Source of the DNA: Naegleria gruberi
Taxonomy: Eukaryota
Strand: one strand, 5' to 3'
Assembly: GCA_000004985.1 (NCBI GenBank)
Contig: GG738906.1
DNA length: 64,000 nt
Shown: piece by piece, positions 56,993-62,518 of the stretch
Layout: the number at the start of each line of letters is the position of its first letter
Position numbering within the stretch: the first letter of the stretch is position 1
Notes under the pieces: generated by a model
Told to the model about the DNA's origin: nothing
The model's database searches: none
Seen by the model: only the letters and a program-made list of their open reading frames with translations
Made by a program: the position numbers and the translations under genes

Positions 56993-58438
56993 ATGAGACC
57001 AAAAAGCTATAATCCTCTCGATCCTATCATTCAAACACAACCTGATGCCGGAAGAGAAAATCTTCAATTGAAGGAAATTTTTGTTCGTGGAGTGGAAGCA
57101 ACAAGCGAATCTAAAATTACAGCTGCTTTCCAAGAAGCTAAAAAAGCTACAACTTTGAACGAATTGAACGAAGCTATTAGTATTGGTCTTGAACGTGTTG
57201 GAAAATTGGATGTTTTAAATAATGTTAATGTGATCCTTGATGCTGATGATAGTAAAAATGTTGCTCTTGTTTTGGACTGTAAGGAAAAACAATCAACTCG
57301 TCTTTCTGCTGGTACAACTGTTAATGACAAGGGTCAAGTTAAAGGAGAAATCTCCTTCGGATATAGAAATCTTTTAGGACAAGCTGATAGATGGGATGTT
57401 GATGCTAATATTGATAAGACTGGTTTGACACTTGTAGGACGTACTTTCCTTCCACAAAGCTTTAATAATGATGGTGCTCTCTATGTTAGTGGATTTTTAA
57501 ATGGAGGTAGAGTTTTAACAAATCTCTTACAAGAAAAGTCAAATGGTGTTTCTGTCAGAGCTGAAATTAATGATAGACATTCAATTTCCTATGATTTTGA
57601 AATGAGAAGAAATGAAGATGTTGGTTCCATGTTTAAGAAGGCCTCATCTTCTGGATCTTTCTCTAGATTCTTCTCTAGATTCTATAATGCCAAGACTCAA
57701 GATTCTGAGCCAGTTCTTGATAAGGATGATTCTGTTGTAAAGAGTCAAGTTTGGACTGAAGTTAAGGAACAAAGTGTTAAATCTTCCTTGTCTCATACTT
57801 ATCGTTTTGATACTAGAAACAGCTCATTTGCTCCATCTAGTGGCGCATTTTTCAAATTAGTTCATAGATTAGCAGGATTGGGAGGTGATGTCAAACACTA
57901 CTCTGTTGATATGAATGGTGAAGTGTTTGTTCCTCTCATTTCAGATTCTTTAGTTGCTGCTTTAAAGCTTAATGTTGGTACAATTATACCATTGGACAGA
58001 CAAAATGATACATTCATTTCATTGAATGATAGATTTATCGAAAAGGTACGTGGTTTCCCAGCTGTGGGTACTGTTCATCCACGTTCTGAAGAAGTTTATG
58101 GAGGTAATATTAAGGCTGTAGCCACTGGTAGACTTGTATTCCCATTCCCAGTGTCGTTCATTCATCAATTACTTGGATTACACTGTCAAGCATTTTGTGA
58201 CATTGGCAATGTTTCAAATATTAATGATTACAGTGAAAATGGAGTTCAACAATTTAGAGAAAAATTCTGTAAGGGACTTCATACCAGTTATGGCTTTGGT
58301 CTTGCCATGATGTTAAGCTTTGGTAGAATTGAATTTAATTTTGCTAAGCCATCAACCTTATTCAATGATCAAACAAATCTTCCACCAACTCTTAATAGTT
58401 TCAAACAATTTTCAATTCACTACGTATTTAATGAATAA
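56993..58438 (+). CDS. SAMM50: SAM50 (SAMM50/Tob55), mitochondrial outer-membrane beta-barrel sorting and assembly protein; single exon
   Basis: LKSSLSHTYRFDTRNSSFAPSSGAFFKLVHRLAGLGGDVKHYSVDMNGEV matches human SAMM50 ([49 protein letters not shown]). POTRA-like N-terminus. Terminal ..HYVFNE beta-signal-like end. Confidence 0.8.
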   Translation: MRPKSYNPLDPIIQTQPDAGRENLQLKEIFVRGVEATSESKITAAFQEAKKATTLNELNEAISIGLERVGKLDVLNNVNVILDADDSKNVALVLDCKEKQSTRLSAGTTVNDKGQVKGEISFGYRNLLGQADRWDVDANIDKTGLTLVGRTFLPQSFNNDGALYVSGFLNGGRVLTNLLQEKSNGVSVRAEINDRHSISYDFEMRRNEDVGSMFKKASSSGSFSRFFSRFYNAKTQDSEPVLDKDDSVVKSQVWTEVKEQSVKSSLSHTYRFDTRNSSFAPSSGAFFKLVHRLAGLGGDVKHYSVDMNGEVFVPLISDSLVAALKLNVGTIIPLDRQNDTFISLNDRFIEKVRGFPAVGTVHPRSEEVYGGNIKAVATGRLVFPFPVSFIHQLLGLHCQAFCDIGNVSNINDYSENGVQQFREKFCKGLHTSYGFGLAMMLSFGRIEFNFAKPSTLFNDQTNLPPTLNSFKQFSIHYVFNE

Positions 58439-58512
58439 TTTTAAAAAAGTAAATGGTTATATTTATTATTGTAAATTTATTCTCTCTATTTTGTTACAAT
58501 ATTTTAAAAAAA

Positions 58513-59728
58513 ATGAAAAGATTTATCATCAAGTTGGGAAAAGAAGGAAATGCATCAACCAAATCCGAAGGAATTTATCTATCACACATTTCCGATTTAC
58601 ACACCTGGCAACCTGAAAAGTTTGAATATCCTATCACAATAGCAAATCTAATGAAAAACAACAAATTAAAAGATTTAAAACAAATTCAAGGATTTTTAAA
58701 TGTAAAATACAATAGAGGGCCAAATTTGTATCAAGTACAGGTGTTACAAGAAACATTGCAAAAGATTTCAACATCAATCGTCACTCAACAAAATCATCAC
58801 TTGCTTGTCAGTGGGGACATTACAAACATTTCTCATTTGGAGGAATTCAAACTGGCAAAAGAAATACTTGTGGACAAATTTAAACAATTAATTGAATTAG
58901 AAAATGAAGAGGATTTATTTAAATATTGTACTCTAGTACCAGGTAAATTATCAAATATTTATAATTTAAAAGCATAATTCAGGAAATCATGATACATACA
59001 CACCATCCAGTGTTTCAGATAATTATTTTGGAAATTTCTTCAAAAATACATTGGGTCAACATTACTATCCCGAGCTATTAGAGAATAATTACTTTTTAAA
59101 ATCAAAAAATTCACAACTCACACAAGAAATGTCAAATCGATTCGTTTCCTCTCTTTATGATTTATTTCCTAATGTAAAGCTTTTACATAACACAGATGGA
59201 ACTAAGGTTTTAATAATTTCCTTATTGTCATGTGTACCAACCAAACCATTTGTTGCAGCTGGAAATATTAAAGAACAAGCACTTGTGAATGCCTCAATTT
59301 TAATCGAGAATATGAAACAGACAATGAAAGAGGAAGGTATTGATGCAGATGCACTCTTCAAGGTTGTACTCATGCATCATCCACCAATTGAACGAGCCAA
59401 AAATTCATTTAGAGAGAAACTGGATGGTCTAGATACGGCATCCAAAAAGAGAGTTCAAGATTTTTGCGAGAGGGAACGAATCGATTTGCTACTTCATGGA
59501 CATACTCATATTCCATTCAGAGGGACCATAGGAGATTCCTATAAGACACTCATAGTTGATAATGGATCTTCCACATATGTCAACATGGAAAAGCCAAACA
59601 AAATGGCCAGATTTAATACCTATCATATTAAGGGTACTCGTCTTCAAACAATAGAACAACATGTTTGGGATCCAATTTCTCAATCATTTAATGAAAGTAC
59701 AATCCTAAATACCTCCTCCGTCAATTAA
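58513..59728 (+). CDS. Calcineurin-like metallophosphoesterase (MPP superfamily); 2 exons (~58513..58942, ~58983..59728)
   Basis: MPP motifs ISDLH (GDxH-like), VSGDITN (GDxxD-like), VPG|NHD (GNHD/E split by a 40-nt intron), VLMHHPP, LLHGHTHIP (GHxH). Confidence 0.65.
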
Positions 59729-61232
59729 ATCAATTTGGCCAGTGCTCTCGAATAAAACTCTGAAACATTCTTCATCATTATCAACGCCAGCAGTAATTTC
59801 TTCTGTATAGGTTTCTTGCTTAGTTTGTTGAGTGGTAGTGGCCTTTTTCTTTTTTCTGAGCTTGTTGAAAGTAGGTTTTGTCTGTTCTTCATCATCACTT
59901 GAATCTATGCCAATTAATTTAAGTTTAGATCTCAAATATTTGAGTTCTTGTTCCAATCTCTTCTCTCTAATGTAAAGAGCACGAATAGCTTGAGCATCAA
60001 TATCATCATATTGATAGACTGTAGAGGAGTTGTTACCTTGCTGTTGTGGTTTTTTAGATAAAGAATTTAAAGCCATTGTAATAATAGAGGAAGGAGAAAG
60101 AACAGACTCATCATTAACACTTTCTGAATTAGGTGGCACAGTTGTATCAACCACCAATTTTTTAGGTTTTTCAGATGATTGGTTATTATTAACAAGTTTC
60201 ACAATATTGTTGTCAATTAGTTTTGTGCCATTATCAGCAATAGCTTCAGAGGAGGCTCCAGTGTTGGTATCAGCATAACCTGCAGTTGAACTCTTCTTAT
60301 CCTTGATGCATCTTGCAGGAATACCAACAAGGGTGCAATCACTTGGGGCATCCTTAACAACTACTGAGCCAGCTCCAATTTTAACATTTGATCCAATAAT
60401 TATATTTCCCAACACTTTTGATCCAGCTCCAACAAGTACATTATCCCCAAGAGTAGGGTGTCGTTTGCCAGTTTCCTTACCAGTACCTCCAAGTGTCACT
60501 AAATACAGAATATTATAGAAATCATGATGAATATCACATACCTCCTTGATAGAGAGTACAATAATTTCCAAGAATTGCTGTTTCTCCAATTACAACTCCA
60601 CAACCATGATCAATGAAAAATCCCTTACCAATTCTTGCACCTGGATGAATTTCAATACCAGTCCAAGATCTTGAAATAATACACATCAATTTGGCTACAA
60701 ATCTAAGAATTTTACAAGCCAAAAGCAGAAAATTACTATTCGAATTTTGAGGGTCAATAATATAGTAGAGTAAATGAGCTATTCTATAAGTGAGTATTGC
60801 CCATAATCCAGGATAGAGTATTAATTCAAGATAATTATCAAATGCAGGATCATTATCAATAATCACAGAAACGTCAGATTTGAGTTGAGACCATATAGGT
60901 TCGGAACAAACACAAACTGATTCAGTATGTTCCTCAATGGTATGTGGTTTTTGTTTTGTTGTACTGAGCTTTGAAAGAGAGTGTAACAATTGTTCTCCTT
61001 CCAAAGCTATAACTGATGGTTTTTCAGTAGGTTGATTAACAATGGGATGACTATTCTTTGAAAACGATTCGTCTTCGGAAGAATTTCCAACAGATCCCAA
61101 CACAACTAAATCAGCATATGAAGCTTTTATCTTGTTTAAAGGAGAAGAAGATGATGAACCCGAATGATGATGGAGATGCTTGGAAGAGGAGTTATCATCA
61201 GGAACAACAACTTTGTTTAGAGTGGTGCTCAT
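59705..61232 (-). CDS. cysE: Serine O-acetyltransferase (CysE-type, left-handed beta-helix hexapeptide acyltransferase) with long N- and C-terminal extensions; 2 exons (~61232..60542, ~60498..59705)
   Basis: IHPGARIGKGFFIDHGCGVVIGETAILGNYCTLYQG|VTLGGTGKETGKRHPTLGDNVLVGAGSKVLGNIIIGSNVKIGAGSVVVKDAPSDCTLVGIPAR is near-colinear with bacterial/plant SAT (..YQGVTLGGTGK..DRHPKI..GV.IGAGAKILGNI.VG..AKIGAGSVVL..VP...T..G.PAR). Split by a 43-nt GTATGT..TATTTAG intron. SATase N-domain-like ..GLWAILTYRIAHLLYY. 3' end overlaps the convergent MPP gene CDS by ~24 nt. Confidence 0.75.
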
Positions 61233-61762: not shown

Positions 61763-62518
61763 ATGGGATCAGGATTATCAAATAACCGAGCTAAAAACTC
61801 AACAGATGAACCTAAAAATCCACCAAAGAAATCATCCACTGATACAAAAGATACTAAAGCTGTAGAACAAGCAGACCAAGTTAAACGATCATCAACAGAA
61901 CCGACTAAGAATGAAACAAAACCGGAAAAGAAACCAGAAAAAAAGAAAGCATACGTTCCAGAATTTGTTTTCCACTCCGATAAGGGTAAGATTATTTTGA
62001 ACAATTCTTTTTACTAACAGTTGTATTAGATCTTTTATATGGTGATGTAGCTCTTCCATGGCAGGAATCTTACGCACTTGGATTTCATATAATAGACGAA
62101 CAACATAAAATGCTTGTAAAATTGATTAATGAACTTGCTGAGGCAGTTAGAGATGGGCATATGAGATATGAAATTGGGAGTGTGTTTGACAACTTGGTTG
62201 AGTACACTGACTTCCACTTTAAGAAGGAAGAAGAATTGATGGTAAAATATCAATACACAGAAGATGAAGAAGCTGCTCACAAGGAAAAGCATGAACTTTT
62301 TATTAAAAAAGTCTTTGACCTTAGAACAGATTTCATTAACATGACAGTGAACAATATTGGCCAAGGTATGTATTCTTGAATCAAATATTTATGGAGCAAT
62401 TTAATTCCACTTGTTAGATCTTCTTGATTTCTTAACAGATTGGTTATTGACACACATTTGTCAAACTGACAAGAAGTTATGCGATTTCCTTATTAAAAGG
62501 AATATTGTTGAAGAGTAA
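61763..62518 (+). CDS. Hemerythrin-like (HHE cation-binding) protein with N-terminal MGxxxS myristoylation consensus and Lys/Thr/Pro-rich linker; 3 exons (~61763..61985, ~62030..62365, ~62418..62518)
   Basis: Exon 1 begins MGSGLSNNRAK (Gly2, Ser6). Exons 2-3 encode DLLYGDVALPWQESYALGFHIIDEQHKMLVKLINELAEAVRDGH...LVEYTDFHFKKEEELMVKYQYTEDEEAAHKEKHELFIKKV....DLLDFLTDWLLTHICQTDKKLCDFL, the hemerythrin H..H, H...E, H...H, ..DWL.NHI pattern. Intron 1 contains TACTAAC. Confidence 0.7.

What the first reader, a model, noticed from the sequence alone, without database searches (positions are those of the whole stretch)
59705..61232. Intron-containing eukaryotic serine O-acetyltransferase (CysE-type) with large N- and C-terminal extensions
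The core hexapeptide-repeat region is almost colinear with bacterial/plant serine acetyltransferase, yet it is split by a typical 43-nt spliceosomal intron. It carries a ~230-aa N-terminal region (Ser-rich plus SATase N-domain-like) and a ~190-aa Ser/Asn/Lys-rich, partly coiled-coil-like C-terminal tail (..RALYIREKRLEQELKYLRSKLKLIG..KKKKATTTQQTKQ..). These tails are absent from canonical CysE. SAT is absent from most animals and fungi, so its presence points either to an organism with a sulfur-assimilatory cysteine pathway or to an old horizontal acquisition that has become fully domesticated. In SATs the C-terminal tail normally docks into O-acetylserine sulfhydrylase to form the cysteine synthase complex. 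Replacement by a long low-complexity tail suggests altered or novel regulation.
Basis: partly seen in the sequence, partly recalled or inferred. Interest (0 to 1): 0.62.

Follow-up and report, generated by a model that had tools for sequence, protein, structure and literature searches.

The report
Amoeba serine acetyltransferase with stretched tails
This is a normal, apparently working gene for the first enzyme of cysteine synthesis in a Naegleria-type amoeba; its long extra tails are stretched versions of a tail already found in bacterial relatives, so it is ordinary.

Summary
A minus-strand gene (61232..59705) has two exons and one 43-nt GT..AG intron (60541..60499). It encodes a 494-aa protein whose core (aa ~118-298) is a CysE-type serine O-acetyltransferase with every active-site residue intact.

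The organism is a heterolobosean amoeba of the Naegleria group. The best homologues are Willaertia magna, N. fowleri and N. lovaniensis, and a hemerythrin neighbour is syntenic with N. lovaniensis.

The C-terminal tail does not replace the OASS-docking tail. It is the tail of the "truncated" CysE isoform, best seen in cyanobacteria, with low-complexity inserts. Both anchor motifs survive: an amphipathic helix (DIDAQAIRALYIREKRLEQEL) and the terminal LIDGGGI (cyanobacterial FLDGxGI, E. coli ..YGDGI).

The same architecture occurs in Acrasis, Pharyngomonas and the jakobid Andalucia. The gene is therefore old in Discoba, not a recent transfer or contamination. The bacterial donor is unresolved.

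Naegleria and Willaertia add a ~115-aa N-terminal extension with one conserved helix. Each lineage has its intron at a different position.

In Acrasis kona and three environmental eukaryotic contigs, SAT sits head-to-head with a CysK gene. No CysK lies in this window. Interest is low.

The parts
60542..61232 (-). Exon 1 (codons 1-230 plus the first base of codon 231). ATG at 61232..61230.
   Evidence: ORF list; splice enumeration and translation.
60499..60541 (-). 43-nt phase-1 spliceosomal intron, GTATGTGAT...GTATTTAG, inside the Val231 codon between ...LYQG and (V)TLGG.
   Evidence: It is the only GT..AG removal that restores the invariant T232-L233-G234-G235 junction without a gap. Neighbouring genes have 35- and 40-nt introns. 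No RNA evidence is available.
59705..60498 (-). Exon 2 (rest of codon 231 to Ile494, plus the TAG stop at 59707..59705).
60882..61232 (-). N-terminal extension, aa 1-117. It is Ser-rich and low-complexity (aa 1-75), and specific to Naegleria and Willaertia. It carries conserved islands: SY.DLVV and the helix below.
   Evidence: Alignment A1; composition. The Willaertia orthologue model is disordered over residues 1-85.
60933..61007 (-). Conserved predicted helix in the N-terminal extension, aa ~76-100 (ALEGEQLLHSLSKLSTTKQKPHTIE).
   Evidence: Conserved in Willaertia, N. fowleri and P0004. AF2 helix 88-111 in the Willaertia orthologue has pLDDT ~70-80. It aligns weakly with E. coli CysE residues 41-60 and with Pfam SATase_N at E=0.0037, below the cut-off.
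60663..60881 (-). Truncated SATase alpha-helical domain, aa 118-190. It includes the substrate-site residue D128 (in DPA) and a lineage-specific ~15-19-aa insert at aa ~158-176.
   Evidence: TIGR01172 and NF041874 alignments start at aa 117-118. Alignments A1 and A2. Mapping to E. coli D92.
60296..60662 (-). Left-handed beta-helix (hexapeptide) catalytic domain, aa 191-298, interrupted by the intron. It carries E194, D208-H209 and R243-H244.
   Evidence: Pfam Hexapep at 50.4 bits against a cut-off of 27. PDB alignments. Residue mapping to E. coli D143, D157, H158, R192 and H193. AF2 pLDDT 83-95.
60008..60295 (-). Linker 1 of the tail, aa 299-394: a Ser/Asn/Lys-rich insert, predicted mostly disordered (pLDDT <50 for most of it).
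   Evidence: It has no counterpart in cyanobacterial-type SATs. S+T+N+Q+K fraction is 0.51. pLDDT is <50 for aa 303-367.
59909..60007 (-). Conserved amphipathic tail helix, aa 395-427 (DDIDAQAIRALYIREKRLEQELKYLRSKLKLIG). It has heptad a/d residues at I402, L405, E409, L412, L416, L419, L423 and I426.
   Evidence: It is homologous to the cyanobacterial LPDSEAQVIRALVDRIExLEQQ. The motif is present in 102 of 120 best hits. AF2 places a helix at aa 397-426 with pLDDT 70-94. Heptad scan.
59783..59908 (-). Linker 2 of the tail, aa 428-469: acidic, then Lys/Thr-rich, predicted disordered.
   Evidence: Variable in length and sequence in all homologues. pLDDT mostly <50, with a few residues at the edges just above.
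59708..59782 (-). C-terminal module, aa 470-494: a short helix (DNDEECFRVLFE) followed by a flexible peptide ending LIDGGGI. This is the presumed OASS-docking end.
   Evidence: It aligns with the cyanobacterial C.L.D..I.EFLDG[AGS]GI and with E. coli ..EYGDGI. 78 of 120 hits have both the helix motif and [DNE]G.G[IL] at the end. The role of the C-terminal Ile is described in PMC9547175.

Best explanation
The locus encodes the serine O-acetyltransferase (EC 2.3.1.30) of a Naegleria-group heterolobosean amoeba. The enzyme would transfer an acetyl group from acetyl-CoA to L-serine to make O-acetylserine, the first committed step of de novo cysteine synthesis. The catalytic unit is of the 'truncated CysE isoform' type: four SATase helices plus a left-handed beta-helix, expected to form trimers. 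The long C-terminal tail is the ancestral tail of that isoform, stretched by two low-complexity disordered inserts. It keeps an amphipathic heptad helix, which could form a three-helix bundle on the trimer axis. It also keeps a flexible terminal peptide ending -DGGGI, which most likely inserts its C-terminal Ile into the active site of an O-acetylserine sulfhydrylase (CysK) to form a cysteine synthase complex and take part in cysteine feedback. The N-terminal ~115 residues are an addition specific to Naegleria and Willaertia. They are mostly disordered, with one conserved helix of unknown role. Shown here: gene structure, family assignment, conservation of active-site residues and tail motifs, orthology and synteny. 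Inferred: enzymatic activity, trimer and coiled-coil formation, OASS docking, and cytosolic location.
Against: No OASS/CysK gene was found in the 64-kb window. None was found within ~6 kb upstream of SAT in the Willaertia, N. lovaniensis or N. fowleri loci, nor in the downstream sequence held for them (~6 kb for Willaertia and N. lovaniensis, only ~0.4 kb for N. fowleri). None from these genera appeared among the 120 best relatives of the Acrasis CysK. The partner in this genome is therefore unverified. TIGR01172 is 9 bits under its trusted cut-off, explained by the aa 158-176 insert. The N. lovaniensis orthologue lacks 83 codons including the catalytic Asp-His, so the pathway may be dispensable in part of the genus. 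There is no transcript or biochemical evidence. The 200-aa tethers could change the stoichiometry or kinetics of complex formation.
Confidence: 0.8

Rival explanations
1. The tail has lost the cysteine-synthase-complex function. It now serves a new regulatory role, for example as a phospho-regulated disordered scaffold or a coiled-coil partner-binding module. This is what the first reader suggested.
For: The tail is about twice the length usual for the subfamily: 201 aa against a median of 105. Half of it is low-complexity and disordered. cysK is not adjacent here, unlike in Acrasis.
Against: The two elements that define the ancestral tail are both conserved across Naegleria, Willaertia, Acrasis, Pharyngomonas and Andalucia, while everything between them has diverged. 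These are the helix and the terminal DGxGI with C-terminal Ile. This is the signature of a retained docking function. Only the linkers are new.
Confidence: 0.1
2. The gene is a recent horizontal acquisition from a cyanobacterium, or bacterial contamination of the assembly.
For: After the eukaryotic homologues, the best database hits are almost all cyanobacterial SATs (57-62% identity over the core, 203-230 bits). They share the tail architecture. In a first NJ tree, cyanobacteria were sister to the eukaryotic clade.
Against: The gene has a spliceosomal intron, host-like GC (0.32-0.34) and host-style low-complexity inserts. Its neighbours are eukaryotic and it is syntenic with N. lovaniensis. 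Orthologues exist in Willaertia, Acrasis, Pharyngomonas, Andalucia (a jakobid) and Dysnectes. With broader sampling the cyanobacterial sister relation disappears and deep nodes have bootstrap below 50%. Any transfer is therefore ancient and its donor is unresolved.
Confidence: 0.04
3. The protein is another hexapeptide acyltransferase (WcaB, maltose/galactoside or sugar N-acetyltransferase), or an inactive SAT-like pseudoenzyme.
For: TIGR01172 is slightly below its cut-off. The N. lovaniensis orthologue has lost the catalytic segment.
Against: WcaB scores 75 bits against a cut-off of 196. Maltose and galactoside acetyltransferases score 31-33 bits against cut-offs above 300. All serine-site and catalytic residues are present in the window protein. 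The frame is open over 494 codons.
Confidence: 0.04

Closest known systems
Orthologous SATs of other Discoba: Willaertia magna ABK040_011506 (529 aa), Naegleria fowleri (709 aa), N. lovaniensis C9374_008277, Acrasis kona (274 aa), Pharyngomonas kirbyi, Andalucia godoyi ANDGO_00352 (372 aa)
   Same: They share the core, the tail helix (PD.DA..IRALY.R..LE) and the terminal DG.GI. Willaertia and the Naegleria species also share the N-terminal helix and the aa 158-176 insert. The hemerythrin neighbour is conserved with N. lovaniensis.
   Different: Linker lengths and sequences differ. The intron position differs in every lineage: window at Q-G|V-T, Willaertia at HP|T, N. fowleri at HGSG|VV, and none in Acrasis and its relatives. 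Acrasis and its relatives have no N-terminal extension and keep cysK next to SAT.
Cyanobacterial 'truncated-isoform' CysE (e.g. Gloeocapsa sp. PCC 7428 AFZ33105.1, Chroococcidiopsis, Leptolyngbya; ~270-290 aa)
   Same: 57-62% identity over the core. They have the same short SATase domain, the same tail helix and the same FLDG[AGS]GI end.
   Different: They have no N-terminal extension (DPA motif at residue ~24 against 128). Their tail is ~105 aa against 201 aa. They have no intron and no low-complexity inserts.
E. coli CysE (PDB 1T3D), the canonical full-length hexameric SAT
   Same: Same catalytic beta-helix and active-site residues. About 40% identity over 201 aligned residues. The C-terminus is ..GDGI with the OASS-anchoring Ile.
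   Different: E. coli has eight N-terminal helices that mediate the dimer of trimers. Its tail is only ~30 aa and lacks the long amphipathic helix.
Staphylococcus aureus and Mycobacterium tuberculosis truncated CysE (PMC13040420)
   Same: Four-helix SATase domain, an elongated C-terminal alpha-helix and a retained C-terminal Ile. They are predicted to be trimeric.
   Different: Bacterial and compact. They have no disordered inserts and no N-terminal extension.
Other protist and plant SATs: Entamoeba histolytica SAT1-3 (3P47, 3Q1X, 7BW9) and soybean SAT (4N69)
   Same: They are eukaryotic SATs of the same enzyme family (E 1e-34 to 1e-36).
   Different: They are much more distant (121-129 bits in the PDB search, against 203-230 bits for cyanobacterial-type sequences in the search; the two searches are not strictly comparable). 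They are full-length-type N-domains without this tail architecture.

Membership tests
Serine O-acetyltransferase (CysE, EC 2.3.1.30) | Left-handed beta-helix built of hexapeptide repeats | tested here: met
   Pfam PF00132 at 50.4 bits against a cut-off of 27. AF2 beta-helix pLDDT 83-95.
Serine O-acetyltransferase (CysE, EC 2.3.1.30) | Match to SAT-specific profiles above curated cut-offs and ahead of other hexapeptide acyltransferases | tested here: met
   NF041874 at 194.3 bits against a cut-off of 150. TIGR01172 at 201.6 against 210.65, marginally below because of the aa 158-176 insert. The next family, WcaB, scores 75 bits against 196. The 22 best PDB hits are all SATs.
Serine O-acetyltransferase (CysE, EC 2.3.1.30) | Catalytic and serine-site residues (E. 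coli D92, D143, D157, H158, R192, H193) | tested here: met
   D128, E194 (Glu, as in all cyanobacterial-type members), D208, H209, R243 and H244.
Serine O-acetyltransferase (CysE, EC 2.3.1.30) | N-terminal alpha-helical SATase domain | tested here: inconclusive
   Pfam PF06426 at 18 bits against a cut-off of 21, E=0.0037. Helices are predicted in the orthologue model. This is consistent with the four-helix truncated form.
Serine O-acetyltransferase (CysE, EC 2.3.1.30) | Acetyl-CoA:L-serine O-acetyltransferase activity | not testable with these tools
   Requires an enzyme assay.
Truncated CysE isoform with elongated C-terminal helix (PMC13040420) | Absence of SATase helices alpha1-alpha4 | tested here: inconclusive
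   Profile matches begin at aa 117-118, as in truncated forms. However, Naegleria and Willaertia carry one extra conserved helix (aa 76-100) that aligns weakly with E. coli alpha3.
Truncated CysE isoform with elongated C-terminal helix (PMC13040420) | [quoted passage not shown] | tested here: met
   AF2 helix at aa 397-426, pLDDT 70-94. The motif is shared with 102 of 120 relatives.
Cysteine synthase complex-forming SATs | Flexible C-terminal peptide ending in Ile | tested here: met
   The protein ends LIDGGGI. Compare E. coli YGDGI and cyanobacterial FLDGxGI. The last 12 residues have pLDDT <50.
Cysteine synthase complex-forming SATs | A CysK-type OASS partner in the same genome, and physical binding to it | not tested
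   Only 64 kb of the genome is available, and it holds no CysK. CysK is adjacent to SAT in Acrasis kona and related contigs. Binding needs an experiment.
Maltose/galactoside O-acetyltransferase; WcaB | Profile score above the family cut-off | tested here: not met
   31-33 bits against cut-offs of 314-347. WcaB scores 72-75 bits against ~195.

The most novel reading that the evidence does not exclude
Naegleria and Willaertia add two things to the ancestral SAT. The first is a conserved N-terminal helix (EGE.LL..LSK.ST.KQKPH) with the SY.DLVV island. The second is a doubling of the disordered tethers around the tail helix. Together these may form a new regulatory module. It could tune or re-target cysteine-synthase-complex formation, for example through phosphorylation of the Ser/Thr-rich linkers or recruitment of a second partner. 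This would fit a lineage in which cysK has been uncoupled from the ancestral cysK-SAT head-to-head pair.
Probability: 0.1. Interest if true: 0.45.

Novelty: new member of a known kind. Interest (0 to 1): 0.2.

Why it matters
It matters little beyond annotation. It shows that this Naegleria-group genome keeps a complete, intron-bearing SAT gene, so the organism probably makes its own cysteine. That pathway is absent from the human host and has been discussed as a drug target in other protists and in bacteria.

Three smaller points may interest specialists:

- The helix plus DGxGI tail of 'truncated' CysE enzymes is conserved from cyanobacteria to Discoba. This argues that the poorly studied long tail is functional.
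- Acrasis-type heteroloboseans keep the two complex-forming enzymes as a head-to-head gene pair.
- An originally intronless gene has acquired a different intron in each lineage.

Tried and rejected
I modelled the Willaertia orthologue and the window exon-2 product instead.
- A homology search with the tail alone found one fragment (P0136), because the word index collected only 3 candidates.
- Exact look-ups of two other window ORFs found nothing. The species could not be named beyond 'Naegleria group'.
- The search for a Naegleria OASS failed. The Acrasis CysK search returned no Naegleria or Willaertia protein among the top 120, and the candidate P0151 proved to be a bacterial MAG with a cysK-cysE operon. 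Literature searches found nothing specific on the Naegleria SAT/OASS pair.
- The idea of a cyanobacterial donor was suggested. It was dropped after broader sampling and bootstrapping.
- Apparent synteny of the downstream metallophosphoesterase with Acrasis was tested and rejected, with no tblastn match.
- Mitochondrial targeting by the N-terminus was considered unlikely, because acidic residues occur at positions 12-13 and the extreme N-terminus is not conserved. No predictor was available.
Full report
**Observation**

The region holds two minus-strand ORFs, 60534..61232 and 59705..60589. Enumerating every GT..AG removal that yields one open frame shows which splice is correct. The 43-nt segment 60541..60499 (GTATGTGAT...GTATTTAG, phase 1 within the Val231 codon) gives a 494-aa product. 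It is the only option that joins ...NYCTLYQG to (V)TLGGTGKE without a gap. T232, L233, G234 and G235 are invariant in a 116-sequence alignment. Two neighbouring genes have comparably tiny introns. One is 40 nt and restores the GNHD motif of a metallophosphoesterase. The other is 35 nt, carries a TACTAAC branch site, and lies in a hemerythrin-like gene. The intron is therefore typical for this genome. No transcript data are available.

**Family assignment**

Residues ~118-298 match CysE-type serine O-acetyltransferase:
- TIGR01172 scores 201.6 bits (E 7.9e-60). This is 9 bits under the trusted cut-off, because a lineage-specific ~15-19-aa insert at aa 158-176 splits the alignment.
- NF041874 scores 194.3 bits, above its cut-off of 150.
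- WcaB scores only 75 bits.
- Maltose and galactoside acetyltransferases score ~31-33 bits.

**Organism and residency**

The best homologues are Willaertia magna (53% identity over 84% of the query), Naegleria fowleri, N. lovaniensis and Acrasis kona. GC content is 0.29-0.36 across the window and 0.32-0.34 at the locus. The neighbours are a Sam50/Omp85 gene, a protein-kinase fragment, a metallophosphoesterase and a hemerythrin-domain gene. The hemerythrin gene lies divergently upstream of SAT in the window and also in N. lovaniensis, with 70% protein identity. This is a resident gene of a Naegleria-group heterolobosean, not contamination. Exact look-ups of window proteins found no record, so the species cannot be named.

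**The C-terminal tail**

Cyanobacterial SATs are the best bacterial hits, with 57-62% identity over the core. They carry a tail with a median of 105 aa (range 73-139) after the G[IV]P[AG]R motif. That tail has two conserved elements: a helix, LPDSEAQVIRALVDRIExLEQQ, and the terminus C.L.D..I.EFLDG[AGS]GI.

The window protein has both in the same order: DDIDAQAIRALYIREKRLEQEL (aa 395-416) and ECFRVLFESTGQIDLIDGGGI (aa 474-494). Of the 120 best hits, 102 have the helix motif and 78 have both elements. E. coli CysE ends ...EYGDGI.

The literature is consistent with this reading. The C-terminal Ile is the main anchor of CysE in the CysK active site (PMC9547175). 'Truncated' CysE isoforms are described as having an elongated C-terminal helix and retaining the Ile (PMC13040420). 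Such isoforms are prevalent in Cyanobacteriota, Bacillota and Actinomycetota.

An AF2 model of the window's exon-2 product gives the following picture:
- the beta-helix has pLDDT 83-95;
- aa 303-367 are disordered;
- aa 397-426 form a confident helix (pLDDT 70-94);
- aa 428-469 are mostly disordered;
- aa 470-481 form a short helix;
- the last 12 residues are flexible.

The helix has a 3-4 hydrophobic repeat (I402, L405, L412, L416, L419, L423, I426). That repeat is compatible with a three-helix bundle on the trimer axis, but this is an inference.

What is new in this lineage is only the two Ser/Asn/Lys/Thr-rich linkers, which double the tail to 201 aa. The jakobid Andalucia godoyi (204 aa), Willaertia (216 aa) and N. 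fowleri (322 aa) show similar expansions, always with the DG.GI end intact. The ends are conserved while the linkers have diverged completely. This argues that the OASS-docking function is retained.

**The N-terminus**

The DPA motif sits at residue 128, against a median of ~24 in cyanobacterial-type enzymes. Residues 1-75 are Ser-rich and not conserved at the extreme N-terminus. Two islands are conserved among Naegleria and Willaertia: SY.DLVV and EGE.LL..LSK.ST.KQKPH. The second island is a predicted helix in the Willaertia model (residues 88-111, pLDDT ~70-80). It aligns weakly and collinearly with helix alpha3 of E. coli CysE and with Pfam SATase_N at E=0.0037, below the cut-off. Acrasis, Pharyngomonas and Andalucia lack this extension. 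It is therefore more simply explained as an addition in the Naegleria/Willaertia lineage than as a remnant of a full-length SATase domain. Its role is unknown.

**Evolutionary setting**

I built a profile of the eukaryote-like clade and searched it against 1.84 billion representatives. Cluster look-ups show the same SAT type in Andalucia godoyi (Jakobida), Pharyngomonas kirbyi (a basal heterolobosean) and Dysnectes brevis (Metamonada). In NJ trees, Naegleria plus Willaertia is supported at 100%. Deeper nodes have less than 50% bootstrap. The cyanobacterial sister position seen with narrow sampling disappears with broad sampling. The gene is therefore old in Discoba, and a bacterial donor cannot be named from these data. 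Euglenozoan SATs have other best hits, such as Planctomycetes, Clostridia and Neisseria (supplement of PMC7052976).

The SAT genes of Acrasis and three environmental eukaryotic contigs are intronless. The window, Willaertia (59 nt at HP|T) and N. fowleri (207 nt at HGSG|VV) each have one intron at a different position, all phase 1. This suggests lineage-specific intron gain.

**The partner enzyme**

In Acrasis kona and in three environmental contigs carrying eukaryotic genes (kinesin, TMC, RING fingers, xanthine dehydrogenase), SAT lies head-to-head with a CysK-type gene that has the SVKDR and TSGNTG motifs. A bacterial MAG has cysK-cysE as a co-directional pair. No CysK is present in the 64-kb window or in the sequence held around the Willaertia, N. 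lovaniensis and N. fowleri SAT genes. That sequence covers ~6 kb on each side for the first two, but only ~0.4 kb downstream for N. fowleri. No Naegleria CysK appeared among the 120 best relatives of the Acrasis enzyme. That list is saturated by sequences of 61% identity or more, so this is not evidence of absence. Whether this genome encodes OASS remains the key untested point.

**Verdict**

The gene is an ordinary, probably functional SAT of the discoban clade. It has a truncated-CysE core and an expanded but recognisable ancestral tail, plus a lineage-specific N-terminal extension. It is a new member of a known kind. Interest is low (0.2).

Noticed in passing
L008:6914-8825 (Acrasis kona); L005:701-2674; L006:6892-8867; L007:4277-6269: A CysK-type O-acetylserine sulfhydrylase gene and the SAT gene form a divergent head-to-head pair in Acrasis kona and in three environmental eukaryotic contigs. 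These are the two enzymes that form the cysteine synthase complex. The pair is broken in the Naegleria and Willaertia loci.
   Followed up: partly
L002/L003:6560-6850 (N. lovaniensis): The N. lovaniensis orthologue lacks the ~83 codons AFDNY...FIDHGS, which include the catalytic Asp-His. In their place is ~278 nt of AT-rich sequence annotated as an intron. The gene is either inactivated there or the assembly is faulty. The two contigs carry identical copies.
   Followed up: partly
L004:6920-7130 (N. fowleri); L001:6795-6857 (Willaertia); window 60499-60541: Each lineage has its single SAT intron at a different codon, all in phase 1. The N. fowleri intron is 207 nt, in frame and free of stop codons. 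It is read through in one database model (P0003, 778 aa).
   Followed up: yes
window 59705-59728: The convergent SAT and metallophosphoesterase coding sequences overlap by 24 nt. The last eight codons of each, including the conserved DGGGI codons, are encoded on opposite strands of the same DNA.
   Followed up: partly
window 58453-59728 (+): A metallophosphoesterase gene is split by a 40-nt intron (58943-58982). Removing the intron recreates the GNHD motif.
   Followed up: partly
window 61763-62379 (+): A hemerythrin-domain gene has a 35-nt intron (61986-62020, TACTAAC branch site). It has a Lys/Pro/Thr-rich N-terminal region that starts MGSGLS, a possible N-myristoylation signal. It is divergent from SAT and 70% identical to the N. 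lovaniensis neighbour.
   Followed up: partly
window 56993-58438 (+): An intronless Omp85/Sam50-family gene (Pfam PF01103, E 1e-33) lies two genes downstream of SAT.
   Followed up: no
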